From the IMG/VR virus record IMGVR_UViG_3300022918_000007, positions 1 through 40,632 of that record: a stretch of DNA of 40,632 nt; one strand, written 5' to 3'. The notes below the pieces were generated by a model. The model saw only the letters and a program-made list of their open reading frames with translations. It was not told the origin of the DNA and made no database searches. This document shows, piece by piece, positions 1 to 40,632 of the stretch. Numbering within the stretch: the first letter of the stretch is position 1; every line of letters starts with the position of its first letter. The translations under genes were made by a program, and so were the position numbers. The DNA is from a virus.

Positions 1-127
1 TTCGTAGCACCGTAATCGAAAGACAGAACTATTCTGCTCCAGTCATTGATCGCATATTTATCCAGGAGAAATAATGTTGCGATGCAAAGCTGGAAAACAC
101 CGGTGCGCATCACAAACATCATCATCT
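1..127. repeat. Terminal overlap: identical to 40506-40632 (circular closure; unique genome about 40,505 bp)
   Basis: Both ends read base by base: ttcgtagcaccgtaatcgaaag...cacaaacatcatcatct is present at both termini. A minus-strand ORF stays in frame across the junction. Confidence 0.9.
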
Positions 128-2893: not shown

Positions 2894-2939
2894 AAAGCAA
2901 AAATCCCCACTTGCGCGGGGATTCTATAGGACAGGAAAT
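2891..2939 (-). promoter_or_regulatory. Conserved 49-bp hairpin cassette, copy A (stem 2902-2908/2917-2923, U-tract, ATG)
   Basis: 45/49 identical to 17475-17523. Minus-strand RNA reads AUUUCCUGUCCUAUAG-AAUCCCC-GCGCAAGU-GGGGAUU-UUUGCUUU-AUG. Confidence 0.75.
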
Positions 2940-4616: not shown

Positions 4617-4639
4617 GTGCTACCGTGCTACCGTGCTAC
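4617..4639. repeat. Three tandem copies of GTGCTAC(C) (8-bp period), the same motif family as the 18.4-18.7 kb array
   Basis: Plus strand reads gtgctaccgtgctaccgtgctac. It overlaps the last codons and stop of 4620..5297 and lies upstream of 3766..4596. Confidence 0.8.
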
Positions 4640-9111: not shown

Positions 9112-9826
9112 GGCAGGTGTTTTTAGTTAACTGAAGGAAAACTTCAAAGCAACATTGACGGCTACTGGCTGAAATGGCGGACGGGTTTAAGATTAGTTTC
9201 CCTCCCCGGAACAGAATTCCAGTGCAGCCGATCATTTTAATTGGATATCCGTTTAGTCGAGAGTCATCAATTATTTGTTGATATTGTTCGACTGTCCCGC
9301 CAATGAAGTAATCACCATCACGGAGTTGTATGTTCCAACGCGCAATTCGTACAGCGATTAGCGGAAAAGAATAAACAGAGTAAGGCAAAACTTCCAGGAA
9401 GTCAGCCATTGTATCCCAGTAGTGGCCACAGGAGTTTGGAATATCACCGATTTCTTTGACAAGATCAGGATTGTTTTCCGGATCCATACGTAAGAATCCT
9501 GTCTGTAAAAACAAAGCGTCGCTTTCACTATAAGATAAACTCTCTGTTACTTCGTCCAAGATTGCAAAATCGATATTCAGACCACGCATGGATGAATTTC
9601 CTATAGCCAAAGTTTTCGTTTGTGTAGATTGATGTTCATGCTTAAAAAGCAAGTTCAGTTGTAAACAAAGCTCTTCCCCAAAGACCTTCCTCATGAAATC
9701 ATTATGTGCCATATCTAAAATCGCTCTCATAAAGGCGAGGATATCCTCATCGAATGTAAGCCTGGCCGCATGTCCAACAAGGCTATCTTCCTTGCGTAGC
9801 TCTTGCATTAATTCTTGATGGTTCAT
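9098..9826 (-). CDS. Hypothetical protein
   Basis: 242-aa ORF with no recognised motif. Confidence 0.55.
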   Translation of the reverse strand: MNHQELMQELRKEDSLVGHAARLTFDEDILAFMRAILDMAHNDFMRKVFGEELCLQLNLLFKHEHQSTQTKTLAIGNSSMRGLNIDFAILDEVTESLSYSESDALFLQTGFLRMDPENNPDLVKEIGDIPNSCGHYWDTMADFLEVLPYSVYSFPLIAVRIARWNIQLRDGDYFIGGTVEQYQQIIDDSRLNGYPIKMIGCTGILFRGGKLILNPSAISASSRQCCFEVFLQLTKNTCHANS

Positions 9827-10093: not shown

Positions 10094-10585
10094 TTAACGG
10101 TGCTGGAGTTGCTTTTTTTTCAATTCAATGGACCGCTGCTGCCGACTGACCTCGAGCTGAACAGACACGGAATTGCGTTCGGTTACTTTATCCAGGAAAT
10201 CTGGGTGAGTGGTGTTATTTAATATCCAGTCAGTCAGCGTTGCATGCTTCGAAAGCAGGTCGTTGTAGATGCGCTCAGGGCTTGTGCCTGAGGAAAGTGT
10301 CCTTCCCTTTAATCGGTTCACCTGTAGAATGTTTCTAGCTATAGCTGCGGCCTCTAAGTCGAAGTTTTTAATGAGCGTGAACCCTGAATGCTGATTGCCG
10401 GAAGATAATGGCGCACCGTAGTCCAGCCTTAATGAGACAAGATCGCCGGCCAGCGTGTGGACCGAATAAGATTTTCCGGGAATAGCTTCCCGAACTTTAG
10501 TATGCAAGTTGTTTCTGGACAGTGCTCCAGGGAACTGTTGAATTGCTTCAACAATAACTTTTAAACGATCGTATCTGTTACTCAT
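10094..10585 (-). CDS. Putative winged-helix (HTH_11/YafY-like) DNA-binding regulator, first gene of the accessory block
   Basis: Start moved to the internal ATG at 10585 (MSNRYDRLKVIVEAIQQ...), because the listed N-terminus MFLFCFFFVSF is a translation of the A-tract promoter repeats. The pattern RxDRLxxIxxxI...SxxTLxxDLxxLRxxxGAPL resembles HTH_11 regulators. Confidence 0.45.
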   Translation of the reverse strand: MSNRYDRLKVIVEAIQQFPGALSRNNLHTKVREAIPGKSYSVHTLAGDLVSLRLDYGAPLSSGNQHSGFTLIKNFDLEAAAIARNILQVNRLKGRTLSSGTSPERIYNDLLSKHATLTDWILNNTTHPDFLDKVTERNSVSVQLEVSRQQRSIELKKKQLQHR

Positions 10586-10600
10586 TGGAAATGTTTTGCC

Positions 10601-10656
10601 CAAAAGTAGAATAAAAGAAACAAAAAAGAAACAAAAAAGAAACAAAAAGGAAACAC
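10601..10656 (-). promoter_or_regulatory. Promoter with a TACTTTTG -7 box (10601-10608) and four GAAAC units phased at 11 bp
   Basis: The minus strand reads GTGTTTCCTTTTTGTTTCTTTTTTGTTTCTTTTTTGTTTCTTTTATTCTACTTTTG, then 15 nt, then ATG. It matches the Bacteroidota TAnnTTTG consensus and is near-identical to 37126-37180. Confidence 0.65.
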
Positions 10657-10827
10657 TTTTGGTAATTTGATGGAAATTCTCAAAATGAAAAGGCTTTATA
10701 ATTGTGTTACAACCCTTTAAATCCGGTGGATTCGATAAAAAATATCAAAATCAAAGAGTAACGCGCGTCTATGGGTGTGACGATTTGTTTAAACAATTGG
10801 TACAGTTTTCAGGATATGTGTGGGGGG

Positions 10828-12354
10828 TCAATCGAGCAGTCGCGTCTCGATTGCCGCGTTGCTGCTGGTCATCAGGCGAACGAACATACCAACAACGATC
10901 ACGTCGAACGTGTCGCTGAAGTGGGTGGCGTGCTCCTGGGGAATGACCTTGCTCTTTTCAGAACGCTTGTCTTTCTGGATCTTGGATTTGGTTCCGGCTT
11001 TTGCTGGAGCTGATACGATCGAGATGATGAGCTCACGGCAATTGGTTCGGTTCATCCGGATGCGCGGATACTTTGGGTTGTTCTCCTGGAGGATCTCTGC
11101 CATCAGTCGGTACTTTACATCGTGCTTCTCATTGTAGTTTGACCTGGTCATTGGCCTGACAGTCCACCCCAGCGATCGGAGGATAGCCATCACCTGCTCG
11201 GCATAGGTCTTGCGGCTGTTCGCCTGTGACACGTTCCCGGACGCGTCGTACCAGAAGTAGATCACCTTGTTCTTCCTGGTCTTGTAGTAGGGGTGGAACT
11301 GGTGTTCGATCAGGTCATCGATGATCTGCGGTGAGGTAACAAAGAAGTTCTTCAGTACCCTGAGCTCATCCGGATATTGTTGCGCGGCTACCAGGCAGTT
11401 GATGTTCGCACCCCAGTCAATGCCAATGATCAGCGGCATTACCTCGTTGTGATCAGCATCACCCTGACAGTTGGCGGTTGCACCTTCGGCCAGGTCACGG
11501 TAGTAGTCGTTATTGAAGGAGTCGTAGCAATGGAGCTTCTCGTTGAACTTAGGATAGAAGCCATCCTTTATCCTGGTGATCCGTTTGTTCAGGACTTCAG
11601 CATCATAGAGAAAGGAAGCCATTGTTGCCTTAGCATTCTTGAAGAAGTCGCTGCCCAGGTTAGCCAGATTCGCTGTTGCTGCAGCGGAAATGAACTTCAC
11701 CTTGGCTGGATTTTTCCGCGCTTCAGCTTCATACTTCAGTACCCACTGGCCGGCAGGCGTAAGCGGTGTACTTGTAGCCAGGAGGAGGGAATGGTGGCGG
11801 TCGCAGTCCTTATAGTACTTCCAGGTGCCGTCTGGGTCGATAGCTTTCTGGTGCAGGTTTCCCCTGATGGTAAGCAGTACATCTGTATTGAACTTCGCCT
11901 CATCGAACAGAGCCGCCTCGTCACCAATCGCCCAATCGATGTTAAGTCCACGCCCGGAGGAGGCGCCGCCGTCCAGGGAAATGAACACGGTAACCGCGCC
12001 GTTCCACCAGAAGATACAGTGGGTAGGATCCAGGATAGCCTGGTAGGCTTCCGGCCAGTCCCATTCTTTAGGTGGGCGCCGGCCAATGAAGTAGTGTTTA
12101 TCTTTGTAGATGCCGTGCTGCTCGAGGCCCTGAATGGTAGAAGGTAGGGTCCTGGTTTTGATCTGAGCATAGGTAGCGCCAACGATCGCACCTGTTGATC
12201 GGGGCATCTCAACCACACAATCGTACAAGTGCCGGCCGATAATTGTGGACTTGCCTGTTCCGCGGCCCCACTCGAGCACCCAGATCTTCGCTTTCGAGAA
12301 GATAAACATCAGCTGAGCGATGTTGTATAGCAAATCCTTGATTACAACATTCAT
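10828..12354 (-). CDS. terL: Terminase large subunit
   Basis: Walker A LEWGRGTGKST and Walker B NIDWAIGDEAALF, with a nuclease-type C-terminal half. Start set to the ATG at 12354, 1 nt after the upstream stop. Confidence 0.85.
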   Translation of the reverse strand: MNVVIKDLLYNIAQLMFIFSKAKIWVLEWGRGTGKSTIIGRHLYDCVVEMPRSTGAIVGATYAQIKTRTLPSTIQGLEQHGIYKDKHYFIGRRPPKEWDWPEAYQAILDPTHCIFWWNGAVTVFISLDGGASSGRGLNIDWAIGDEAALFDEAKFNTDVLLTIRGNLHQKAIDPDGTWKYYKDCDRHHSLLLATSTPLTPAGQWVLKYEAEARKNPAKVKFISAAATANLANLGSDFFKNAKATMASFLYDAEVLNKRITRIKDGFYPKFNEKLHCYDSFNNDYYRDLAEGATANCQGDADHNEVMPLIIGIDWGANINCLVAAQQYPDELRVLKNFFVTSPQIIDDLIEHQFHPYYKTRKNKVIYFWYDASGNVSQANSRKTYAEQVMAILRSLGWTVRPMTRSNYNEKHDVKYRLMAEILQENNPKYPRIRMNRTNCRELIISIVSAPAKAGTKSKIQKDKRSEKSKVIPQEHATHFSDTFDVIVVGMFVRLMTSSNAAIETRLLD

Positions 12355-12355
12355 A

Positions 12356-12934
12356 TCAGATCTCCTCGAAGTCGATATCGGTAACATCATTCAGATCGAT
12401 CACGCCGGCAGCTGTGATCTTCTCAAGCATCTTAATGTGCTCCGGAGATAGCCCAACATTAAACGTTTGCGGTATGAGCTTGGAAAAATCAGGAAGGTTT
12501 GGGTCGTCCAGCTTCAGACCTGAAGCTTCAATGATGCGTTTCTCTGCAGAGTCTTTTACTCCCATGATCGCTACCCACATCTTATCGGATGCGGTCCTTG
12601 CTCGCTTGGAGCATTCCTTAATGTCATTGATGGCCGATTCGATGATGGTCATCCGGAGGAATTCCTTGTTGAACTTCCGTATAGGCGCGAACAGTTTTTC
12701 CGCTTCCGACAGATCACGGTATGCCTGGGCAACCGAAATGCCTTTTCCCTTCGCTTCCTGGAGAGCAATGAATTTTGAAATGGCTGCTTTTTTCGATCGA
12801 GTCTGGCAAAATATGGAAAACACGAGCTCGAGCCGGTTGCAGATCTCCAGATCCTTTTCACTAAGCTCGCCGTTCTCCAGGTAGTATTTCTCCAGGCGAT
12901 CGAACGTTGTATCTTTTGGTACCAGGTTATTCAT
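12356..12934 (-). CDS. Candidate terminase small subunit (by position only)
   Basis: 192-aa ORF abutting the terL start. No diagnostic motif. Confidence 0.35.
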   Translation of the reverse strand: MNNLVPKDTTFDRLEKYYLENGELSEKDLEICNRLELVFSIFCQTRSKKAAISKFIALQEAKGKGISVAQAYRDLSEAEKLFAPIRKFNKEFLRMTIIESAINDIKECSKRARTASDKMWVAIMGVKDSAEKRIIEASGLKLDDPNLPDFSKLIPQTFNVGLSPEHIKMLEKITAAGVIDLNDVTDIDFEEI

Positions 12935-17477: not shown

Positions 17478-17523
17478 GAAGCAAAAATCCCCACTCGCGC
17501 AGGGATTCTAAAGGACAGGAAAT
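17475..17523 (-). promoter_or_regulatory. Conserved 49-bp hairpin cassette, copy B (stem 17486-17492/17501-17507, U-tract, ATG of the protease)
   Basis: 45/49 identical to 2891-2939. The single stem substitution is a G-U wobble only in the minus-strand RNA. Confidence 0.75.
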
Positions 17524-17529
17524 AAGCGC

Positions 17530-18039
17530 CTAAATGAAGAGATTCAGCTGAGTAGCTCGTTCTTCCGGGGTTTCTTTTCTCATGACTGGAGGGTTGCGCC
17601 GGCGGTAGAACCTCTTCTGAACGGTATGGAGCGCCAGGACATCTTCCGGGATCTCGTAGTAATGGAGAAACTGAGCGATCGCAAGCTCAATGTTCTGTCC
17701 CATATCATGGCGGCGGTTGGCGAAATGGAAGAGCTCGTCATCGAAGAGCTCTTTCAGCACGGTGTCAATTCTTAATATGACATCCGGATCGATCGTAAAT
17801 TTTTTCTCCCTGGCCATTTCCGTACTCATCTCGATCTCGAGAATCGAATCGAATTTTGGATCAATCTTGAATTTCGGGCGGATGTAATCCTTTTTGATAG
17901 GTTCCAGGATCAACGCTGATATGTGACATGACTTGTTGGTGAGCTGGAAGGGCTCAACGCTTTTTTTCTTACCGATGTAGAGCTTCAGATAGTACTGAAT
18001 CGGAATTTTAACGGAGAACTTCATATAGATAGTAAGCAA
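17530..18039 (-). CDS. Hypothetical protein ending in a QLNLF clamp-binding-like motif
   Basis: 169-aa ORF (the alternative ATG at 18024 removes most of the overlap). The C-terminus is ERATQLNLFI. Confidence 0.55.
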   Translation of the reverse strand: MLTIYMKFSVKIPIQYYLKLYIGKKKSVEPFQLTNKSCHISALILEPIKKDYIRPKFKIDPKFDSILEIEMSTEMAREKKFTIDPDVILRIDTVLKELFDDELFHFANRRHDMGQNIELAIAQFLHYYEIPEDVLALHTVQKRFYRRRNPPVMRKETPEERATQLNLFI

Positions 18040-18325
18040 GTTGATCAGTTGATGAAGCGTTACTTCTGCTCATAACATGAGCAGTACATTCAGAAGCACG
18101 AACGCCTTCTGCCAGGTAAGCGAAGACATCCGGGATCAGATCAGATATCCGTACCAGGGCAATGAGCTGTACCTGGTACTCGATATCCGTTTCGGGATCG
18201 TAGATCGTTACGGGAATTGGGAAGTGAGATGAGTTTAGCCGGCCGGCTTTATACCGGGCAATATGGCTCACAAAACCACTTAGGATTTTAATAGTCGCGT
18301 TTGGGACAGGTATGACTTTTTCCAT
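18008..18325 (-). CDS. Hypothetical protein, first gene downstream of the repeat region
   Basis: 105-aa ORF. Confidence 0.5.
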   Translation of the reverse strand: MEKVIPVPNATIKILSGFVSHIARYKAGRLNSSHFPIPVTIYDPETDIEYQVQLIALVRISDLIPDVFAYLAEGVRASECTAHVMSRSNASSTDQLAYYLYEVLR

Positions 18326-18369
18326 TCTCCCACTAAATTATCTAAAATTGCCGATAAAAAACCATAAAT

Positions 18370-18387
18370 GGAACAAAAAGGAAACAC
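18370..18387 (-). promoter_or_regulatory. Partial copy of the GAAAC/A-tract promoter element
   Basis: The minus strand GTGTTTCCTTTTTGTTCC shares 17/18 positions with the 10639-10656 unit. It lies between the octamer array and the ATG at 18325. Confidence 0.45.
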
Positions 18388-18400
18388 ATTTGGGAAAAAC

Positions 18401-18674
18401 GTGCTAACGTGCTAACATTTTTCATTAAACTGAGCATCAGTGTAATTACAAAATAGAGTTTTTAGCCGAAATCGGCTGTAACCATAATGTTTATAAAGGT
18501 TAGCACGCAATTAACCATTCGTGCTACCACCGTGCTAACCGTGCTAACCGAAAAACAGGCGTGCTAACACCGTGCTAACGGCGTGCTAACAGGTGTATAT
18601 AGATGTATATTATTGATATATAGTATAATATATACTTACTACACCCTACGGTTAGCACGTTAGCACGTTAGCAC
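18401..18674. repeat. Array of 12 CGTGCTA(A/C)C octamers: 8 forward, 4 inverted
   Basis: GTGCTAAC at 18401, 18409, 18532, 18541, 18561, 18572 and 18583. GTGCTACC at 18521. GTTAGCAC at 18499, 18651, 18659 and 18667. Confidence 0.9.
18592..18645. other. AT-rich core (6/42 G+C) bracketed by the inverted hexamers GGTGTA/TACACC
   Basis: ggtgta-tatagatgtatattattgatatatagtataatatatacttac-tacacc, lying between the convergent octamer clusters. Confidence 0.8.
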
Positions 18675-18761
18675 GGTATTCGTGTCAAAATTAAAAACAC
18701 CATTTTTTAGTGTCCTATAAAAATTACTTTAGACTCCTCTTAAATTTTGGGATTTCAATAA

Positions 18762-23009: not shown

Positions 23010-25450
23010 CAGCTTATACTAAAACTAAATCCATAATCGGCCGAAAGTCCTTCACCGGTGTAAATGCCGGCTCCGTCGATCATTGCCTGTGCCTTGCTGG
23101 AAAACGCAGTAGGCCCGCAGCCGGTGAATGTTACTTCCGGTAAGTGGAGGAAATGCTTCCGGTATTGCCAGATCTCGGCTATCAACGCATCAACAGAATC
23201 AATAGACAGGGAAAGATCATCGAGGGTAATCAGCAGCAGCTGTGGCATGATGCCTATTTCGATAGCGGAAATTGACATTCCGTTCAGTACCAGGATCTTC
23301 ATTTCTGCGAGTCCATTCAAGTATAATTTACCAGCGATCCCGGCACCTGCCAGGTTTAAATACTGCAGGTTTTTCAGTCGTTTGAAATCCATGCCGATCA
23401 GTTGCATGTTGCCGGTTCCAAAAGTGATGATATCGTCGAAGCACGGCTTCTTCAGTATCAGCTGCTTTTCACCGGTTATTGCTACGGATTTACTGTAATC
23501 ATCCAGCGTGCTGGTATAGTTCACTGTATCCGGAGCGGCGCCGGTTCCCCAGTCAATGGAAATAGATGCGGCCGGCAGGGAAGATTGCAACCCGAGGGAC
23601 ACGGTACCGGTGGCTGTGTAGTAGGCGAAGATCCGTTCATGTGTAAAGCTGCTGGTAATCGTAACTACATGCTGAGAACCTGCAGCATCGATAACAGTTA
23701 CCCGGGCATCGTATGTTTTTTCATCGGTTAACGCCGGGTCGCAAACGTAGGCCTTCAGATCGGTATCCCAATTTGCATCCTGAACGAACACCCCTCCGGA
23801 AGAGATCTGCAGCTGATCATAATCAGCGATCGTAAGACCGTTTTCTTCCAGGTCAAATTGCACTATTCCACAAGCGTAAACCGGCTTCAACTGCGGGATG
23901 AGCGAATAAAAGCTTGCGCGATCGTTCTCGTTGGCCAGTAGCAGCTCCACCTCGAGCTCGGTGGTAAACTCCGATTCTATCTTTACTACCTTTTTCTCCG
24001 TCATTACGATCGCCGGCACCCATCTTTCGTTATCCTGCCAGGCGAATGCAACCAGTGTATTAAGCATCGACTGGAGGCGGTAGGCTTCCTGTTTGAGAAT
24101 CCTGGGCGTTTCGGTCTTAATCGCGTTACGATGTGTCGAGTCGAAAATAAACGAACCTGGCCGAAGGCGGTAGTTATTGAACTGCATCGACCGGTCGGCC
24201 ATCTGGCTATTAACCTGCATCGACTCTTCCCAGACGCCGGTTGTGGAGAACGTTTCCGCTACTCCGAAGGAATTGTAATACATGATCTGGTTTTGCACGC
24301 AGGAGCTCACATCTGTATAGTAGGTCATCAGTGGCGAAACGTTATTTGGCCCACTGCGTATTACGATGGCCCACTTGATAAACGATTCTCCTGGTGCCAG
24401 CATCGATTCCAGGTCCAGCTGCTGATAGCCCACAGGGATGGTGATCGACTCCCAGCGCTGCAGTGTCTGCGTTCCCAGTAGTACATCCTGGGCGCCGGTG
24501 TTTTTGTAAAGCACCAGGTAAATGCTGAAGTCCTGCTGAATGCCGGTGTTCATCCAGCTTAGCCAGTCCTGCTGCGATTTATACAATCGCTTCCCGGACG
24601 GCATCCAGGTCAAGAATTGGTTATTGGACTGAAGATATGCCAGCGGCTCTCCCAGCAGTTGATCATTGGTAGACACGCCGCCCCAATGAGCGAACAACGT
24701 TTTGGTTGTTGTTTTTTCGCCGGCAGAATTACCCGTCCAGGATTCCAGGAACTCGACATAATACCGTCGGAGGTTCCGCGCCGTCTCGATCGCTTGCGCC
24801 GGCATTGGGACTTCATTCCAACCGGCTTCAATCTCGCTATCGATCACATTTCCGATCTCGAGCTGAGCAATACTGCTTTCATCCGGGATGCAATTCATGT
24901 TCGCTACGAGCTCGAATGATCCGGATAGATACTCCCGCTCGAAGTAAACCATTGCCCGCATGCTGTAATCCTGTCGTTCCTCCGGGTCGTTGACAAGCTC
25001 CTGAACGGTATGCTTGATCTTTGGCGTGCCTGGTTGGTTCGTTTCCAGGTTCATCGGGATAAGCTCCCTGAGCGCTTGCCTGGCCACCACATGCACAAAG
25101 ACGTCATCAGTGTAGATCTCGTAGAAGGCATTCAGTTCAGGGATTTCCTTCAGGCGCTGAGCTACTGCAACAGCGTAGGCATATCGTGGGCCGGAAAAAG
25201 CCCAGACGGGCAACGATCCAATGAACACGTTGTTGCTTGTGGCAATGTAGATCTTCACCAGCTCCTGCGTTTCCGGGTTGGTGAAGCTCCACCGGAAATG
25301 AATTCCGGCAGTTGGATAAGTCGCATTGATCTCGAACGTTATTCCAGGGAAAACGCGTTTCGATGGATACTGCATGTTCGTTTGAACCTTGAACCCGATC
25401 GGGTTCTTCGTGAATGAGCACGCATACGGCTCTTTGATTATACTGATCAT
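23009..25450 (-). CDS. Large tail-tip protein with a leucine-rich-repeat-like C-terminal region
   Basis: 813 aa. LKNLQYLNLAGAGI, LAEMKILVLNGMSI and MPQLLLITLDDLSL near the C-terminus. Confidence 0.5.
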   Translation of the reverse strand: MISIIKEPYACSFTKNPIGFKVQTNMQYPSKRVFPGITFEINATYPTAGIHFRWSFTNPETQELVKIYIATSNNVFIGSLPVWAFSGPRYAYAVAVAQRLKEIPELNAFYEIYTDDVFVHVVARQALRELIPMNLETNQPGTPKIKHTVQELVNDPEERQDYSMRAMVYFEREYLSGSFELVANMNCIPDESSIAQLEIGNVIDSEIEAGWNEVPMPAQAIETARNLRRYYVEFLESWTGNSAGEKTTTKTLFAHWGGVSTNDQLLGEPLAYLQSNNQFLTWMPSGKRLYKSQQDWLSWMNTGIQQDFSIYLVLYKNTGAQDVLLGTQTLQRWESITIPVGYQQLDLESMLAPGESFIKWAIVIRSGPNNVSPLMTYYTDVSSCVQNQIMYYNSFGVAETFSTTGVWEESMQVNSQMADRSMQFNNYRLRPGSFIFDSTHRNAIKTETPRILKQEAYRLQSMLNTLVAFAWQDNERWVPAIVMTEKKVVKIESEFTTELEVELLLANENDRASFYSLIPQLKPVYACGIVQFDLEENGLTIADYDQLQISSGGVFVQDANWDTDLKAYVCDPALTDEKTYDARVTVIDAAGSQHVVTITSSFTHERIFAYYTATGTVSLGLQSSLPAASISIDWGTGAAPDTVNYTSTLDDYSKSVAITGEKQLILKKPCFDDIITFGTGNMQLIGMDFKRLKNLQYLNLAGAGIAGKLYLNGLAEMKILVLNGMSISAIEIGIMPQLLLITLDDLSLSIDSVDALIAEIWQYRKHFLHLPEVTFTGCGPTAFSSKAQAMIDGAGIYTGEGLSADYGFSFSIS

Positions 25451-33013: not shown

Positions 33014-36272
<3,259 letters not shown>

Positions 36273-36295
<23 letters not shown>

Positions 36296-36566
36296 GATCT
36301 TTATACCTTACGTGAGAAATAACAGGGATTTGAAGTGCTTGTGCAATCATCACCAGCTGCTTGAGTAATTTGTCATCATGCCAGTTATCGAGGGTGACCA
36401 CAAAGTCTACTTTTGTCATTCGTCCTGTGGCTTCACTCAGGTCTGAATAGTCGATCATCGGACGTGCTAATTGAATTCCTCGAAGTCCAGGAGTATCAAA
36501 CTGGCTTAGGGGGTAAAGCTTAAAATCGTCATTCGTTCCGACGATCATGATTGTAAAGTTCCGCAT
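36273..36566 (-). CDS. Hypothetical protein
   Basis: 97-aa ORF in the early operon. Confidence 0.5.
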
Positions 36567-36819
36567 AGAATTTTTTCTTGATTGTTTCTCCGGACTTGTT
36601 ATCCGGAATTAGGTAAGAAATGCTTGTTTCGTTTCGCCTGGCAAAATCTCTCCAGCCTTTTGAGTCCCACTTTGAGCCGTAAGCGGCCATGTAGTTGTTC
36701 AGCTCTGAGATGTAGCGCAGACAGGTGATCTTGTTTTTGCCACTGGTATCCCGATCGATCAATCGTTTCCGCATGGAAATGATGGTTTTGATCGTTGCAT
36801 GAATACCGATGGCGGACAT
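36529..36819 (-). CDS. Hypothetical protein
   Basis: 96-aa basic ORF in the early operon. Confidence 0.5.
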   Translation of the reverse strand: MSAIGIHATIKTIISMRKRLIDRDTSGKNKITCLRYISELNNYMAAYGSKWDSKGWRDFARRNETSISYLIPDNKSGETIKKKFYAELYNHDRRNE

Positions 36820-37106
36820 TAGCTTGCTTTGGCTTGTCGCCGATTGAACATCCTGGCTCTTGCTACTTTTCGTTCCTGGATCTTGAATAGCTCAAATGCA
36901 GCAGCCAGGATCGGTTCGGATGCATATTCCGCATTTAGGAGAGATTTCCGAATATAACCTTCTGTGTAATTTTCGCCATTTGATTTTTTAACCATTCCCT
37001 GAATCGTTCTTGCGTACTTTGGACCAAGCCCATTTCGCAACCGGGTAAAGTCCTGCACGCTCATTTCAGCGGCCTGCTTGTTCGATAGTTCTTGTTTTAA
37101 ACGCAT
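36819..37106 (-). CDS. Cro-like early regulator candidate (first gene of the leftward operon)
   Basis: 95-aa basic protein, divergent from the repressor gene. Called from position only. Confidence 0.4.
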   Translation of the reverse strand: MRLKQELSNKQAAEMSVQDFTRLRNGLGPKYARTIQGMVKKSNGENYTEGYIRKSLLNAEYASEPILAAAFELFKIQERKVARARMFNRRQAKAS

Positions 37107-37125
37107 GAGATATTTGTTGTTTGCT

Positions 37126-37180
37126 CAAAAGTAGAAAAAAAGTAGAAAAAAGAAACAAAAAAGAAACAAAAAAGAAACAC
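37126..37180 (-). promoter_or_regulatory. Early promoter with a TACTTTTG -7 box (37126-37133) and five units phased at 11 bp (GTAGA x2, GAAAC x3)
   Basis: The minus strand reads GTGTTTCTTTTTTGTTTCTTTTTTGTTTCTTTTTTCTACTTTTTTTCTACTTTTG, then 19 nt, then ATG. Confidence 0.65.
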
Positions 37181-37221
37181 AATTGATTCATTTTTGGGAT
37201 AAAAAGAAACGAAAAAGACAA

Positions 37222-37229
37222 TAACTTTG
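37222..37229 (+). promoter_or_regulatory. -7 box TAACTTTG for the repressor gene (very short leader)
   Basis: Exact TAnnTTTG match ending 12 nt before the ATG at 37242. Confidence 0.5.
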
Positions 37230-37241
37230 GGAAAAAATGAA

Positions 37242-37616
37242 ATGAAAGAAATTACACATAGAGGAAAGTGGTTGTCAGATCAGATAAAGGAAAAAGGAAT
37301 AGCGATTGACCTTATGGCTACAGCGCTAGGGATGGTTAGAACATCGATTTACAAGTGGCGAGACCAGCCATCGTTGAGCTTTAAGGTTATGAAAGCCGCC
37401 GCAGACTTCATTGAAATTGATCTTCGTGACCACTTCAGTAATGTTGATTATCTCTATGCTGAACCACTGCGAGTTTCCGATAAATACATTGAGCTACTGG
37501 AAAAACACTCTGCACTGCAGGAAAAATGTATACTTCAATCTGAGCAATTAGCTGAATATGAACGCCGTTTCGGCGTCTTACCGGGACTGTATCGGGACAG
37601 TAACGATAAAAAATAA
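37242..37616 (+). CDS. XRE/CI-like HTH repressor
   Basis: IDLMATALGMVRTSIYKWRDQPS helix-turn-helix with a coiled-coil C-terminus. ATG at 37242; the listed TTG start at 37227 lies inside the promoter box. Confidence 0.65.
   Translation: MKEITHRGKWLSDQIKEKGIAIDLMATALGMVRTSIYKWRDQPSLSFKVMKAAADFIEIDLRDHFSNVDYLYAEPLRVSDKYIELLEKHSALQEKCILQSEQLAEYERRFGVLPGLYRDSNDKK
37581..37603 (+). repeat. 23-bp perfect direct repeat, copy 1 (CCGGGACTGTATCGGGACAGTAA)
   Basis: Identical to 37741-37763. It encodes the repressor C-terminus PGLYRDS. Confidence 0.9.
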
Positions 37617-37730: not shown

Positions 37731-37763
37731 CCCGGAAATTCCGGGACTGTATCGGGACAGTAA
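37731..37763 (+). repeat. 15-bp palindrome CCCGGAAATTCCGGG (37731-37745) overlapping 23-bp direct repeat copy 2 (37741-37763)
   Basis: Read directly. 7-bp arms CCCGGAA/TTCCGGG. Confidence 0.9.
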
Positions 37764-37783: not shown

Positions 37784-38935
37784 ATGTTCCTAAATAAAAA
37801 AATGTCTAAAATTTCAGCAATTATAAGTTTTATTCCAGCTCAGCTCTACGAGGGAAAAGAGTGGTTTGTCGGCTATTATTGTTTTAATCCAGTAACATCA
37901 CAGCTGCAGCGAAAGAAAGTTAAGATCAACCGGATCCGCTCGATCGTTGAGCGCCGGAAGTACGCTCAGACCGTAATCAGGGAGATCAATTCGAAGCTTC
38001 ACTCCGGATGGAATCCTTTCCTGGAAGAAGAGGCTCCAAAAGGGTTCGTCCTGCTATCGGCCGCAATGAACACCTTCTTCCGGAGTAAAGAGCGCGAGCT
38101 TCGGCCAGATTCTCTCCGAAGCTATTCCTCGTACATCAAAATGCTCAACGCGTACCTGGCCACGATCGATCAGCAAAAAATATTCGCGGTTAACTTTACC
38201 TCGAGCATGGCCATGTCATTCATGAACGAGATGTACAACTCGAAGAGACTATCGACCACAACCTTCAATAACTACCGTATATTCTTCCTGACTCTCTGGA
38301 ACTGGCTGAAGGAAAACGAATACGTTGCCTCGAACGCTTTCTCCAGGATAAAGAAAAAGAAAGCAGGAGAGAAAGAGCGGATCATGATACCGATTCCGGT
38401 TCGGGATCTCGTTAAAGATCACCTGGAGGCCACCGATTATAACTTCCTGATCTGTTGTCTGCTGGTGTTTCATTCATTACTGCGTCCAAAAGAGATCTGC
38501 TGGCTGAAGCCAAATTGCTTTTTCCTGGCAGAGCAGACGATCAGAGTAACGTCGAGCTCAGCGAAAAATGGTCATCTCCGGACGGCTACCATTCCGGACT
38601 CCCTAATGCCATTCCTGGTACAATGGGACTTTAATAGGGCGGCCAGTGAGGAGTTTATCTTTTCTGATGGAATGCTACCTGGGAAGGTTCCTGTGAATCC
38701 CCGTGAGTGGTCCCGGAAATGGTCAAACATGCGGAGGGAACTTAAGATCCCGGCACCAATGAAACTTTACTCGCTCAGGGATACTGGAATAGTTCAGCTG
38801 CTTCGAGATGGCGTCTCTCCGGACGACGTCATGAGACACGCTGATCACTCCTCCTTGGCCGTAACATCGATCTACCTGAGGTATGCCAATCTCTCCGGAT
38901 CCGATCAGATCCGGAGAAAGGGATCAGCTTTTTAA
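37784..38935 (+). CDS. int: Tyrosine recombinase / phage integrase
   Basis: LLRPKEICWLK (Arg), LYSLRDTG (Arg) and HADHSSLAVTSIYLRY (His...Tyr). An N-terminal SAM-like region is present. The start may be the ATG at 37802. Confidence 0.85.
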   Translation: MFLNKKMSKISAIISFIPAQLYEGKEWFVGYYCFNPVTSQLQRKKVKINRIRSIVERRKYAQTVIREINSKLHSGWNPFLEEEAPKGFVLLSAAMNTFFRSKERELRPDSLRSYSSYIKMLNAYLATIDQQKIFAVNFTSSMAMSFMNEMYNSKRLSTTTFNNYRIFFLTLWNWLKENEYVASNAFSRIKKKKAGEKERIMIPIPVRDLVKDHLEATDYNFLICCLLVFHSLLRPKEICWLKPNCFFLAEQTIRVTSSSAKNGHLRTATIPDSLMPFLVQWDFNRAASEEFIFSDGMLPGKVPVNPREWSRKWSNMRRELKIPAPMKLYSLRDTGIVQLLRDGVSPDDVMRHADHSSLAVTSIYLRYANLSGSDQIRRKGSAF

Positions 38936-39871: not shown

Positions 39872-40632
39872 TTAATCGAGCCGGCGCTTTTGTAAGATCC
39901 AAGTCTTCCTAATTCTAACCCAGCCCAACATCAACGCAGCGCCAAGGAAGAACAATATGAATGCTCCAATAAAAGGCCTGTAATTGATAGTTTTCTCAGT
40001 GACCTTCTTTTCAATCTTTTCGTCCGTTTTTGTTATAGTTGAGCTCAAACGCTTTTCGTATTCTCTAAGTAAGATTAATGCTGAGTCCAGTTTTGTTTTA
40101 AAGATCAGATCACCGTTAACATATCGAACCTCTGTTCGCCAGTTTCCGTTCTGCTGGCTCAGCAGTCCTTCCTCCAGGAGCGCCTGCAGCGCAAAAACAG
40201 AAGTGTTTGAATCGGCAGGAATGTAGACTGGTCGCACTGTCTCTTTCTCATAAGTGAAGGTGCTGTCGTGATAATAGTGTTTCTCCGTTGCTTCATTAGT
40301 AAGCCGTTTCAGTCGGTCGCAGGATCCGAGCGTTAAGGCGCTAAAAAGCACCGCTACCACGAATAGTCCTTCCTTTTCCTTTTTGATCGCTCTGACGAGT
40401 CCCAGGGCTTTCCTGATCGCGCCAAGCAGGCCTTTGCCGGTTATTTGTTTGCAGATTGAGTCCATCATGTAGGTTTCGAACGCAACCAGGATAATGCAGC
40501 CGAGCTTCGTAGCACCGTAATCGAAAGACAGAACTATTCTGCTCCAGTCATTGATCGCATATTTATCCAGGAGAAATAATGTTGCGATGCAAAGCTGGAA
40601 AACACCGGTGCGCATCACAAACATCATCATCT
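39872..40632 (-). CDS. 3' part of the wrap-around multi-pass membrane protein (5' end at 1..302)
   Basis: Listed ORF 39872..40630. It has no true start in this copy, because the reading frame continues through the 127-bp overlap. Confidence 0.65.
   Translation of the reverse strand, partial: MMMFVMRTGVFQLCIATLFLLDKYAINDWSRIVLSFDYGATKLGCIILVAFETYMMDSICKQITGKGLLGAIRKALGLVRAIKKEKEGLFVVAVLFSALTLGSCDRLKRLTNEATEKHYYHDSTFTYEKETVRPVYIPADSNTSVFALQALLEEGLLSQQNGNWRTEVRYVNGDLIFKTKLDSALILLREYEKRLSSTITKTDEKIEKKVTEKTINYRPFIGAFILFFLGAALMLGWVRIRKTWILQKRRLD
40506..40632. repeat. Terminal overlap: identical to 1-127
   Basis: Base-by-base comparison. Confidence 0.9.

What the first reader, a model, noticed from the sequence alone, without database searches (positions are those of the whole stretch)
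18401..18674. Twelve CGTGCTA(A/C)C octamers converging on a 14% GC core: candidate origin or packaging recognition site
The 436-bp gene-free gap between the lysins and the head-proximal genes holds eight forward copies (18401, 18409, 18521 variant, 18532, 18541, 18561, 18572, 18583) and four inverted copies (18499, 18651, 18659, 18667) of one octamer. Spacings are 8, 9 and 11 bp. An 8-mer is expected about once per 40 kb on both strands at uniform composition. The forward block and the inverted triplet face each other across a 42-bp core with only 6 G+C, itself bracketed by GGTGTA/TACACC. Iterons plus an AT-rich unwinding element is the classic origin layout. Repeats flanking a cleavage region also resemble P1-type pac or cosB-type terminase sites. 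It is not a CRISPR array.
Basis: partly seen in the sequence, partly recalled or inferred. Interest (0 to 1): 0.8.

Follow-up and report, generated by a model that had tools for sequence, protein, structure and literature searches.

The report
Phage-specific octamer array around AT core
The repeats are real and belong to a strictly conserved protein-binding region found upstream of the head genes in a whole family of Bacteroidota phages, each phage using its own 8-base word; it is most likely a replication origin that also controls the head operon, and it is not the DNA-packaging site.

Summary
There are 11 GTGCTAAC copies plus one GTGCTACC variant, all in 18400-18675. The core is 42 bp at 14% GC and the gap is 436 bp.

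The window is a complete circular assembly of a 40.5-kb, Bacteroidota-type, cos-packaging phage related to Polaribacter phage Leef_1.

At least 13 relatives (protease 30-45% identical) carry the same layout upstream of a conserved 169-aa gene and the head operon:
- three forward copies at period 8;
- an AT core of 44-94 bp, usually containing ATCAAT;
- three reverse copies at period 10-11;
- mixed and palindromic copies;
- about 91 bp of spacer;
- a reverse doublet at period 8;
- a Bacteroidetes-type promoter.

The octamer itself differs between phages (GTTAGCAC, GGTAGCAC, GTTGGCAG, CTTGCAC, AAAAGCGG, AATAGCGG, GATTACAG). This implies a cognate phage-encoded binding protein.

Physical genome ends lie just after terL, 7.7 kb away, so the pac/cos reading is rejected.

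Best reading (0.4): a SaPI/P4-style origin, with convergent iterons around an unwinding element, coupled to head-operon control.

Main rival (0.3): a purely transcriptional control region.

The binder is unidentified. The adjacent 169-aa protein family has 797 cluster representatives and no known fold.

The parts
18651..18675 (-). Distal triplet: three contiguous copies at period 8. Read on the coding (minus) strand it is GTGCTAAC x3 (called 'Fx3').
   Evidence: The same triplet at period 8 is present in relatives L071, L072, L074, L076, L080, L082, L083, L085 and L089.
18598..18639 (.). AT core: 42 bp at 14% GC, bracketed by GGTGTA/TACACC. The conserved central ATCAAT (minus strand) lies at 18612-18617.
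   Evidence: In relatives the core is 44-94 bp at 10-25% GC, and ATCAA is present in 9 of 13.
18560..18590 (+). Three copies at period 11, convergent with the triplet across the core ('Rx3' on the coding strand).
   Evidence: The period 10-11 triplet is conserved in relatives.
18499..18548 (.). Middle cluster: the variant at 18520, copies at 18531 and 18540, and one opposite-strand copy at 18499-18507. Together they form palindromic pairs.
   Evidence: Relatives have equivalent R/F palindromic pairs.
18400..18416 (+). Promoter-proximal doublet at period 8 ('Rx2' on the coding strand), followed by a T-run. It is a perfect 19-nt inverted repeat of the distal triplet.
   Evidence: repeats I1, I2. 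It is conserved in all relatives about 91 bp after the middle cluster. It lies 30, 37-39, 47-49 or 60-61 bp from a -7-like box.
18333..18378 (-). Promoter-like segment: the T-rich unit TTTTGTTCC (18370-18378) and the -7-like box TAATTTAG (18333-18340), which ends 7 nt before the ATG at 18325.
   Evidence: Relatives L089 and L080 have a perfect TATTTTTG at the same place.
18686..18758 (-). Upstream flank: a conserved block ATTATTGAAATCCCAAAA (about 18738-18758) and a perfect Bacteroidetes -7 box TAATTTTG (18686-18693), which ends 10 nt before the triplet.
   Evidence: The block is ATTCTTGGATTCCTAA in relatives.
4617..4639 (-). Second site: GTAGCAC(G) x3 at period 8 on the coding strand. It ends 20 nt before the ATG of the 276-aa gene and overlaps the stop codon of the preceding gene.
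   Evidence: A homologous site exists in the relative contig IMGVR_UViG_3300033068_001909 (L079 9757-9778), whose main array is L089.
17530..18039 (-). The 169-aa gene. It lies downstream of the array in every relative, either first or after the optional 105-aa gene, and is the candidate cognate binding protein (inferred).
   Evidence: AF2 model pLDDT is 83. The only structural match is Leef_1 gp39.
18008..18325 (-). The 105-aa gene between the array and the 169-aa gene. It is absent in L080 and L081.
33041..36295 (-). Primase-NTPase fusion (1084 aa): a DnaG-type N-terminus, a P-loop near residue 700, and an uncharacterised C-terminus. It is the alternative candidate binder.
10775..10827 (-). 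Conserved post-terL sequence (CACACATATCC...) ending at the inferred physical genome end (about 10775). This is the likely cos region.

Best explanation
The gap is a dedicated assembly site for a phage-encoded, sequence-specific DNA-binding protein. Most likely it is the phage's replication origin.

Proposed mechanism, all of it inferred:
1. The protein binds the convergent triplets on either side of the AT core. One triplet has period 8. The other has period 11 and so lies on one face of the helix.
2. A host IHF/HU-like protein may bend the conserved ATCAAT centre.
3. The 14%-GC core melts.
4. Two oppositely oriented helicase assemblies are loaded, using the 1084-aa primase-NTPase either directly or through the adjacent 169-aa protein.
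5. The same protein occupies the promoter-proximal doublet at about -60, -70 or -80 of the head-operon promoter. This ties head-gene expression, and expression of the 169-aa gene itself, to origin occupancy.
6. The isolated triplet at 4617-4639 would be an auxiliary cis site, as crr is for P4.

What is shown: the array, its conservation, the concerted change of the octamer between phages, its position relative to the promoter, and its distance from the genome ends.

What is inferred: binding, melting, helicase loading, and the identity of the binder.
For: - Statistics and anatomy of the array.
- The same modular architecture is present in all 13 related arrays, with protease or 169-aa protein identity of 30-45%. 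Spacings are near-identical: 8, 8 / core / 11, 11 / about 20 / ... / about 91 / 8.
- The octamer changes in concert within each phage while the layout stays fixed. Examples are GTTAGCAC, GGTAGCAC, TGTAGCAC, GTTGGCAC, GTTGGCAG, CTTGCAC, TAGCAAAA, AAAAGCGG, AATAGCGG and GATTACAG. This is the behaviour of iterons co-evolving with an initiator.
- SaPI origins are described as 6-12 short iterons with an AT-rich centre. At least two iterons on each side point in opposite directions, and they are bound by a self-loading helicase that in SaPI5 is fused to the primase (PMC9371898). The window encodes such a fusion.
- The P4 alpha protein has the order DnaG primase, SF3 helicase, winged helix (PMC2777425).
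- A second cis site with the same word exists in two phages.
- No other iteron-plus-AT-core candidate exists in the genome.
- An unrelated viral contig (L019) has the same octamer in a 2F+1F+3R+2F arrangement between a PriCT primase-like gene and a UvrD-like helicase gene.
Against: - The array is 14.4 kb from the primase-NTPase gene in the window and 5 kb from it in Leef_1. SaPI origins abut rep. Cognate site-protein pairs in mosaic phages are normally adjacent.
- The array always travels with the head operon in a fixed orientation, whatever lies upstream: a lysin, an integrase, or a divergent tail module.
- The proximal doublet is phased with a promoter. Transcription control explains this without invoking replication.
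- There are no DnaA boxes in the array.
- The GC-skew switch seen at the array in the window is not reproduced in relatives.
- Neither the 169-aa protein nor the C-terminal half of the primase-NTPase shows detectable similarity to any known initiator or winged helix. The model of the latter is unusable, with pLDDT 33.
Confidence: 0.4

Rival explanations
1. A purely transcriptional control region for the head (late) operon. A phage-specific regulator, perhaps the adjacent 169-aa protein acting on its own operon, binds the promoter-proximal doublet as a class-I-type activator or repressor. The distal convergent triplets and the bent AT core would form a loop or higher-order complex that sets the timing of head-gene expression. 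The triplet at 4617-4639 would do the same for the portal operon.
For: - The array sits upstream of the 169-aa gene and head operon in every relative, in one orientation. Most relatives have a strong intrinsic terminator just before it.
- A Bacteroidetes-type promoter (T-rich 11-bp units with TTTG, then TAnnTTT[G/A]) lies between the doublet and the start codon. The box is a perfect TATTTTTG in L089 and L080.
- The same promoter design occurs at 10647-10601 and 37182-37126 in the window.
- The distance from doublet to box takes values 30, 37-39, 47-49 and 60-61 bp. These are steps of about one helical turn.
- The second site has the same orientation relative to downstream genes and precedes the portal operon in two phages.
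- Adjacency of a variable site to one particular gene fits a regulator-operator pair.
Against: - Twelve or more sites, with a strictly conserved convergent-triplet layout around a 10-25% GC core, is far more elaborate than known late-promoter activator sites.
- The steps of about 10 bp could simply come from gain or loss of the 11-bp T-rich units.
- The second site in the window ends 20 nt before the ATG, with no promoter-like box in between.
- No octamers lie upstream of the tail genes.
- The 169-aa protein has no recognisable DNA-binding fold.
Confidence: 0.3
2. A packaging recognition site (P1-type pac or cosB-type). The small terminase binds the repeats and the DNA is cut in or near the AT core.
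For: - The layout resembles P1 pac, with short repeats on both sides of a cleavage region and an IHF site. This resemblance is from my own knowledge.
- The site lies at the start of the head-packaging operon.
- The 169-aa protein has the size of a small terminase and a long central helix.
- Two relatives' contigs (L075, L087) begin inside the array.
Against: - Defined ends lie after terL. The L071 and L072 contigs stop at the same homologous base, and L072 continues into an adapter.
- Leef_1 has terL at the record end, and PhageTerm predicts Cos 3' ends for it.
- A sequence conserved in all relatives lies at that point.
- The array is 7.7 kb from that end and 5.4-6 kb from the terS-candidate/terL pair.
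- A 192-aa gene overlapping terL is the natural terS candidate.
Confidence: 0.04
3. An RNA leader or attenuator. The region is transcribed from the TAATTTTG box at 18693-18686. Alternative pairings of forward and reverse copies, including the triplet with the distal doublet followed by a U-run, would form terminator and antiterminator structures.
For: - There is a perfect -7 box ending 10 nt before the triplet in the window.
- The doublet is a perfect complement of the triplet and is followed by a T-run in all relatives.
- Variant order is mirrored between the triplet and the doublet in L071 and L074.
- The fold z-score is -6.7.
Against: - The upstream -7 box is not conserved in relatives, whereas the promoter downstream of the doublet is.
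- Periodic repetition of one word, and an isolated triplet with no partner at 4617-4639, are not explained by base pairing.
- There is no Rfam family; the only hit is a sub-threshold hairpin.
- The low fold energy follows trivially from the inverted repeats.
Confidence: 0.05
4. A centromere-like or partition-type site, or another structural site such as an operator array of the ParR/ParG/omega kind. A small dimeric protein encoded just downstream would coat repeats spaced 7-11 bp apart.
For: - Repeats at period 8 and period 11 in direct and inverted orientation lie directly upstream of a small gene. This resembles R1 parC-ParR, TP228 parH-ParG and omega heptads (my own knowledge).
- The N-terminal strand of the 169-aa protein alternates conserved hydrophobic residues with hypervariable polar residues.
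Against: - The phage has an integrase and no partition ATPase next to the array.
- There are no plasmid relatives of the 169-aa protein.
- The model pairs the N-terminal strand within the monomer rather than forming a ribbon-helix-helix. RHH matches are insignificant, with E values of 3-4.5.
Confidence: 0.06
5. A recombination site: attP with arm-type sites, or an invertible segment bounded by the 19-23 nt inverted repeat.
For: - The combination of short repeats in both orientations, an IHF-like site and AT-rich DNA resembles attP.
- In Leef_1 an integrase gene abuts the array.
- The outer repeats form a 19-23 nt inverted repeat 234-242 bp apart.
Against: - In the window the integrase is 19 kb away and has its own repeats (CGGGACAGTAT doublets at 37582 and 37742).
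- The array is intact inside a 108-kb contig (L081).
- All 13 assemblies show the inner segment in the same orientation.
Confidence: 0.03

Closest known systems
SaPI / PICI replication origins (self-loading Rep helicase; PriRep5 fusion)
   Same: Both have 6-12 short repeats and an AT-rich centre. Both have at least two repeats on each side pointing in opposite directions. Specificity differs between elements. In both cases the genome encodes a primase fused to a P-loop NTPase (PMC9371898).
   Different: - The repeats here are 8 bp rather than 5-6 bp.
- The array is 5-14 kb from the primase-NTPase gene rather than immediately downstream of it.
- There are extra conserved modules: palindromic pairs, a spacer of about 91 bp, and a promoter-proximal doublet.
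- There is no detectable sequence similarity to SaPI Rep.
- The hosts are Bacteroidota, not Firmicutes.
Phage P4 ori and crr with alpha protein (DnaG primase - SF3 helicase - winged helix)
   Same: Both use octamer repeats in both orientations at an origin, plus a second distant cis site carrying the same octamers. The initiator begins with a DnaG-type primase domain. The domain order is taken from PMC2777425. The ori/crr details are from my own knowledge.
   Different: An SF3 helicase and a winged helix are not demonstrated in the 1084-aa protein. The second site was seen in only two of the phages for which that part of the genome was available.
Iteron plasmid origins such as pSC101 (AT-rich region with IHF site, iterons, inverted repeats over the rep promoter, rep gene)
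   Same: The order of elements matches: an AT-rich region with an IHF-like ATCAA motif, same-face direct repeats, inverted repeats, a promoter, then an adjacent small gene. The pSC101 order is from my own knowledge.
   Different: - The repeats are 8 bp, not 17-22 bp.
- There are no DnaA boxes.
- The adjacent protein has no Rep_3 or winged-helix similarity.
P1 pac / lambda cosB
   Same: Short repeats flank a central region that contains an IHF-type site, and specificity differs between phages. This resemblance is from my own knowledge.
   Different: The site is not at the genome ends. Those lie after terL, 7.7 kb away.
Class I activator sites at bacterial promoters (e.g. CAP at -61.5/-72.5/-82.5)
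   Same: The proximal doublet sits at distances from the -7 box that differ by about one helical turn between phages.
   Different: The binder is unknown. The doublet is only one of at least 12 sites. Copy-number changes of the 11-bp T-rich units could generate the phasing.

Membership tests
SaPI-type origin (self-loading helicase) | 6-12 short iterons | tested here: met
   12 copies of an octamer within 276 bp. Relatives have 6-15 copies.
SaPI-type origin (self-loading helicase) | AT-rich centre with at least 2 iterons on each side in opposite orientation | tested here: met
   A triplet at 18651-18675 faces a triplet at 18560-18590 across a 42-bp core of 14% GC. This is conserved in relatives.
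SaPI-type origin (self-loading helicase) | [quoted passage not shown] | tested here: not met
   The primase-NTPase gene is at 33041-36295, about 14.4 kb from the array. In Leef_1 gp27 ends at 23901 and the array starts at 29135.
SaPI-type origin (self-loading helicase) | Rep with a C-terminal winged helix that binds the iterons | tested here: inconclusive
   No PDB sequence hit for residues 450-1084, alone or as a 3-sequence profile. The single-sequence AF2 model has pLDDT 33.
SaPI-type origin (self-loading helicase) | Supports replication when Rep is supplied | not testable with these tools
   This needs a plasmid replication assay or marker-frequency mapping.
P4 ori/crr system | A second distant cis site carrying the same octamers | tested here: met
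   The window has one at 4617-4639 and L079 has one at 9757-9778. None was found in the sequenced parts of L075, L081 or L082.
P4 ori/crr system | Initiator built as DnaG primase + SF3 helicase + winged helix | tested here: inconclusive
   The DnaG domains are clear. The P-loop GQPKTGKT is present. The helicase class and a winged helix are not shown.
Iteron plasmid origin (Rep_3 type) | DnaA boxes next to the AT-rich region | tested here: not met
   There is no TTATCCACA with up to 1 mismatch between 16955 and 22840.
Iteron plasmid origin (Rep_3 type) | Adjacent gene encodes a Rep-family winged-helix initiator | tested here: not met
   The 169-aa protein has no Pfam, PHROG or PDB match and no significant fold match apart from Leef_1 gp39.
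pac / cosB packaging site | Lies at or next to the physical DNA ends | tested here: not met
   The ends are inferred 55-90 nt after terL in L071 and L072, with an adapter junction in L072. The homologous window position is about 10775. Leef_1 is reported as Cos 3' and has terL at the record end.
pac / cosB packaging site | Adjacent to the terminase genes | tested here: not met
   terL is at 10828-12390 and the terS candidate at 12356-12934. The array is 5.4 kb or more upstream of them.
Activator/operator site of a Bacteroidetes promoter | Fixed helical phase relative to a -33/-7 promoter | tested here: met
   Offsets from the doublet to a TAnnTTT[G/A] box are 30, 37-39, 47-49 and 60-61 bp in 11 phages. 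Promoter activity itself was not tested.
CRISPR array | Repeats of 23-50 nt separated by unique spacers of similar length | tested here: not met
   The repeats are 8-9 nt and many are contiguous.
Known RNA family (Rfam) | Match at the gathering score | tested here: not met
   The only hit is a sub-threshold hairpin to mir-2513, at 27.8 bits against 89 required.

The most novel reading that the evidence does not exclude
The array and the gene that always follows it would form an undescribed cis/trans pair. The 169-aa protein family has 797 cluster representatives and no known fold or annotation. Under this reading it would be a new kind of sequence-specific DNA-binding initiator or regulator, whose 8-bp specificity has been re-programmed many times around a shared N-N-N-N-G-C-N-N frame. 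It would assemble on convergent triplets to open an AT core and, through the phased proximal doublet, switch on the head operon. That would physically couple origin firing to late gene expression in a large group of Bacteroidota phages.
Probability: 0.2. Interest if true: 0.7.

Novelty: new variant of a known kind. Interest (0 to 1): 0.55.

Why it matters
Origins and late-gene switches of Bacteroidota phages are essentially uncharted. These phages are abundant in oceans and guts.

This locus gives a precisely delimited, evolutionarily validated cis element. It comes with a natural series of specificity variants and a cultured representative (Polaribacter phage Leef_1) in which it can be tested.

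If it is the origin, it would supply replicon parts and specificity rules for genetic tools in Bacteroidota. It would also assign a function to a large family of unannotated phage proteins.

If it is a late switch, it would be an unusually elaborate one.

Either way, the packaging-site annotation should not be applied to it.

Tried and rejected
- **Pattern scans for the octamer.** Genome contigs gave 50 hits. Nearly all were trivial tandem repeats in unrelated bacteria, some of them coding, so they were not informative. The IMG/VR doublet hits L002, L006, L007, L009 and L010 lie inside capsid genes and are chance matches.
- **Close relatives.** Nucleotide search of INPHARED and protein-pattern scans of IMG/VR found none. 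Relatives came only from protein homology searches.
- **Single-sequence word-indexed search with the 169-aa protein.** It returned only the query itself.
- **GC skew.** The window has a cumulative maximum at the array. The switch is absent in L071, L072, L074, L083 and Leef_1, so it was dropped as evidence.
- **DnaA boxes.** None lie near the array.
- **Function of the 169-aa protein.** No Pfam, PHROG or PDB sequence hits. Foldseek against PDB gave nothing below E = 2.7. BFVD returned only Leef_1 gp39. There are no plasmid or INPHARED tblastn hits.
- **C-terminal half of the primase-NTPase.** No PDB hits. The AF2 single-sequence model is unusable, so the last fold search was not spent on it.
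- **Co-variation between octamer and 169-aa residues.** Variable polar positions in the N-terminal strand and in the 'ET-x-x-K' helix partly track the octamer. They are confounded by phylogeny, and the window shares TAGCAC with L071-L076 yet differs at those residues. The result is inconclusive.
- **Module A motif (TTGRAWTCY).** It does not recur at other operon starts.
- **L019.** It has the same octamer in a replication module but no protein homology to the window. I treat it as analogy only and possibly coincidence.
Full report
**1. The observation**

The sequence is as described.
- GTGCTAAC occurs 11 times in the 40.6-kb window, and every copy lies between 18401 and 18674. Dinucleotide-preserving shuffles give 0.71 on average and never more than 3.
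- All 11 extend to CGTGCTAAC. A twelfth copy, CGTGCTACC, lies at 18520.
- Start-to-start spacings are 8 (18401/18409 and 18651/18659/18667), 9 (18532/18541) and 11 (18521/18532 and 18561/18572/18583).
- The stretch 18598-18639 has 6 G+C in 42 bp and is bracketed by GGTGTA and TACACC.
- The gap between the flanking ORFs is 436 bp.
- The upstream neighbour is an endolysin. The genes downstream are a 105-aa ORF, a 169-aa ORF, an S49 head-maturation protease and a capsid-size ORF.

**2. What the window is**

The two ends of the window share an exact 127-bp direct repeat, so it is a circular assembly of a 40,505-bp genome.

Almost all genes are on the minus strand and none has a Shine-Dalgarno sequence. 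TAnnTTTG boxes preceded by T-rich 11-bp units containing TTTG sit at 10647-10601 and 37182-37126. These are Bacteroidota features; the -33 TTTG / -7 TAnnTTTG promoter consensus is from my own knowledge.

The gene order on the coding strand is:
1. primase-NTPase fusion (36295-33041)
2. tape measure and tail genes
3. endolysin
4. the array
5. the 105-aa and 169-aa genes
6. protease and capsid gene
7. five small genes
8. terL (12390-10828)
9. an HNH gene and DUF1643
10. the second site
11. the 276-aa gene
12. portal
13. DUF6712
14. a methyltransferase
15. an integrase, on the opposite strand

The nearest cultured phage by TerL (40% identity) is Polaribacter phage Leef_1 of the Helgolandviridae.

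**3. The array is a conserved, modular element with a phage-specific word**

Protease homologues and a profile of the 169-aa protein led to related contigs: L071, L072, L074, L075, L076/L077, L080, L081, L082, L083, L085, L086, L087, L088 and L089, plus Leef_1 (L084).

In every one, a gap of 410-820 nt precedes the 169-aa gene, with or without the 105-aa gene between them.

Read in the direction of transcription, the gaps contain these modules:
- usually an intrinsic terminator of the upstream operon;
- a conserved block ATTCTTGGATTCCTAA (ATTATTGAAATCCCAAAA in the window);
- a T-run followed by GAAAAA;
- three contiguous forward copies at period 8;
- an AT core of 44-94 bp at 10-25% GC, with a conserved centre (T/A)AATAATCAATAATATA;
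- three reverse copies at period 10-11;
- about 20 bp of spacer;
- further reverse copies and reverse/forward palindromic pairs;
- a conserved TTTTTCGCAAAA(A/T)TCAA block;
- a reverse doublet at period 8, placed about 91 bp after the previous copy, followed by a T-run;
- a T-rich promoter-like segment and the start codon.

This layout is documented.

The spacings are nearly invariant. In the TAGCAC group the last interval is 91, 91, 91, 92, 92 and 92 bp.

The word itself differs between phages:

| Phage | Octamer |
|---|---|
| Window | GTTAGCAC |
| L076, L089 | GGTAGCAC |
| L074 | TGTAGCAC |
| L087 | GTTGGCAC |
| L081 | GTTGGCAG |
| L082 | (A/C)CTTGCAC |
| L083 | TAGCAAAA |
| L085, L086 | AAAAGCGG |
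| L088 | AATAGCGG |
| Leef_1 | GATTACA(G/A) |

Within each phage, all copies carry that phage's own word. This concerted change on a fixed scaffold is what one expects of a cis site co-evolving with a cognate, phage-encoded, sequence-specific protein. It rules out chance, a simple slippage repeat, and a universal host factor as the primary reader.

**4. It is not the packaging site**

- The contigs of L071 (Logan) and L072 (JGI) end at the same homologous nucleotide, 55-90 nt after the terL stop.
- L072 continues directly into AGATCGGAAGAGCACACGTCTGAACTCCAGTCAC. From my own knowledge this is the Illumina TruSeq adapter. Many sequenced fragments therefore ended at that base, which marks a physical DNA end.
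- The sequence just before it (GCGCACATATCC, a T-run, GTTTCAAC-like) is conserved in every relative and in the window.
- Leef_1 has terL at 35950-37464 of a 37,547-bp record. Its authors report PhageTerm-predicted Cos 3' ends (PMC8776804).
- The homologous position in the window is about 10775. That is 7.7 kb from the array.
- A 192-aa gene overlapping terL is the natural small-terminase candidate.

One point goes the other way. Two contigs (L075, L087) begin inside the array. I attribute this to assembly or coverage problems at an AT-rich inverted repeat, but I could not test that.

**5. What the position says**

The array keeps its orientation and its link to the 169-aa gene and head operon whatever lies upstream:
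- a lysin in the window and in L071-L076, L082 and L083;
- an amidase in L081;
- an integrase in Leef_1;
- a divergent gene in L080 and in the P0010 contig.

Between the proximal doublet and the start codon there is a -7-like box TAnnTTT[G/A]. It is a perfect TATTTTTG in L089 and L080, and it is preceded by TTTG-containing 11-bp units. The two clear promoters elsewhere in the window have the same design.

The distance from the doublet to the box is 30 bp in L083, 37-39 bp in L071, L072, L074, L080 and L089, 47-49 bp in L075, L076 and L081, and 60-61 bp in the window and L088. These are steps of about one helical turn. This would place the doublet near -50, -60, -70 or -80 on one face of the helix, like class I activator sites. 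Gain and loss of the 11-bp units would also produce such steps.

The second site (4617-4639) has the same orientation relative to downstream genes. It precedes the 276-aa gene and the portal operon. The relative whose main array is L089 has the homologous site at L079 9757-9778. The sequenced parts of L075, L081 and L082 show none.

**6. What the layout says**

SaPI origins are described as follows (PMC9371898). They have 6-12 short iterons and an AT-rich centre. At least two iterons on each side point in opposite directions. [quoted passage not shown] In SaPI5 that helicase is fused to the primase.

P4 alpha has the order DnaG primase, SF3 helicase, winged helix (PMC2777425). From my own knowledge, it recognises octamers at ori and at a distant second site, crr.

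The window's 1084-aa protein has:
- a zinc-ribbon/DnaG/Toprim N-terminus;
- a P-loop GQPKTGKT near residue 700;
- a C-terminal half that matches only a PHROG of long 'DNA primase' proteins.

The convergent triplets around a 14%-GC core, the additional sites and the second locus therefore fit this class of origin well. The genome has no other candidate of this kind.

Four points count against it:
- The array is 14.4 kb from the primase gene in the window and 5 kb from it in Leef_1.
- There are no DnaA boxes.
- GC skew gives no consistent signal.
- No initiator-like fold could be shown, either for the C-terminus of the primase-NTPase or for the 169-aa protein.

**7. The neighbouring protein**

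The 169-aa protein is the only gene invariably adjacent to the array.
- Its family has 797 cluster representatives at E <= 1e-3 in a library of 1.84 billion proteins. All are 100-210 aa and none is fused to a known domain.
- It has no Pfam, PHROG or PDB sequence match.
- A confident AF2 model (pLDDT 83) has no significant PDB neighbour.
- Its only BFVD neighbour is Leef_1 gp39, the first gene after the Leef_1 array (E = 3.4e-7, TM 0.74-0.77).
- Its N-terminal strand alternates conserved hydrophobic and hypervariable polar residues. A conserved C-terminal 'ED-x-x-x-x-ET-x-x-K-x-YYR-x-R' segment is basic.

These features are compatible with DNA binding but do not demonstrate it. By the rule that variable cis sites sit next to their cognate genes, it is my preferred candidate for the binder. 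This is an inference.

**8. Verdict**

The array is a real, strongly constrained, protein-binding element.
- Origin of replication of the SaPI/P4 kind, with the proximal doublet coupling head-operon expression to the same protein: 0.4.
- Purely transcriptional control region of the head operon: 0.3.
- The remainder is spread over centromere-like arrays (0.06), an RNA leader (0.05), packaging (0.04) and recombination sites (0.03).

It is a new variant of a known kind. If the 169-aa family proves to be the binder, it would add a new DNA-binding family with naturally re-programmed 8-bp specificity. The cultured phage Leef_1 makes every decisive experiment feasible.

Noticed in passing
window 1-127 and 40506-40632: There is an exact 127-bp direct repeat at the two ends of the window. 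It is the signature of a circular assembly, and the true genome is 40,505 bp.
   Followed up: yes
window ~10775-10827 (minus strand); L071 16333-16387; L072 16508-16566: A conserved sequence follows terL (GCGCACATATCC, a T-run, GTTTCAAC-like). Two relatives' contigs end at the same base, which makes it the likely cos end. The public JGI contig behind L072 carries an Illumina adapter at its end (L072 16567-16622).
   Followed up: partly
window 10613-10655 and 37127-37179 (minus strand): There are period-11 arrays of TTTTTTGTTTC (3-4 units), each followed by TACTTTTG. They are probably strong Bacteroidetes-type promoters, one just inside the genome end and one at the early region facing away from the integrase. 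Relatives have analogous period-11 arrays with different units: AATGCAAAAAC in L081 and ATTGCATT in L082.
   Followed up: partly
window 37582-37602 and 37742-37762: Two doublets of CGGGACAGTAT (period 11) lie 160 bp apart, just upstream of the integrase gene (37784-38935). They are candidate integrase arm-type sites (attP) or operators.
   Followed up: no
window 17478-17507 and 2894-2923 (minus strand): Near-identical hairpins AATCCC(C/T)GCGC(A/G)AGTGGGGATTTTTGCTT(C/T) abut the ATG of the protease gene and of the 100-aa gene upstream of the portal gene. They look like intrinsic terminators or processing sites placed directly before a start codon.
   Followed up: no
window 33014-33045: A (TTA)x10.7 microsatellite overlaps the stop of the primase-NTPase gene.
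   Followed up: no
L075 position 1; L087 position 1: Two relatives' contigs begin inside their arrays. L075 starts right after the forward triplet. L087 starts about 70 nt before the proximal doublet. The cause could be an assembly or coverage break at an AT-rich inverted repeat, or a real discontinuity. This is unexplained.
   Followed up: no
L019 1810-1996 (IMGVR_UViG_3300012041_000063): An unrelated viral contig uses the same octamer GTGCTAAC as 2 forward + 1 forward + 3 reverse (then a T-run) + 2 forward copies. Degenerate GTGATAAC copies lie nearby. The array sits between a PriCT primase-like gene and a UvrD-like helicase gene.
   Followed up: partly
window 10094-10585 (minus strand): The first gene after the inferred genome end encodes a 163-aa protein. 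By eye, its N-terminus resembles a DeoR/HTH_11-type winged helix (RLKVIVEAI...SVHTLAGDL). No Pfam or PHROG hit supports this, and it has no homologue in the relatives examined.
   Followed up: partly
window 12356-12934 (minus strand): A 192-aa ORF overlaps the start of terL and is conserved in all relatives at 28-48% identity. It has no family hit and is the likely small terminase.
   Followed up: no
L081 (ENA ERZ25072922 contig_67, 108,593 nt): A family member lies inside a 108-kb contig, so it may be an integrated prophage. The host flanks were not fetched. They could identify a host and attB.
   Followed up: no
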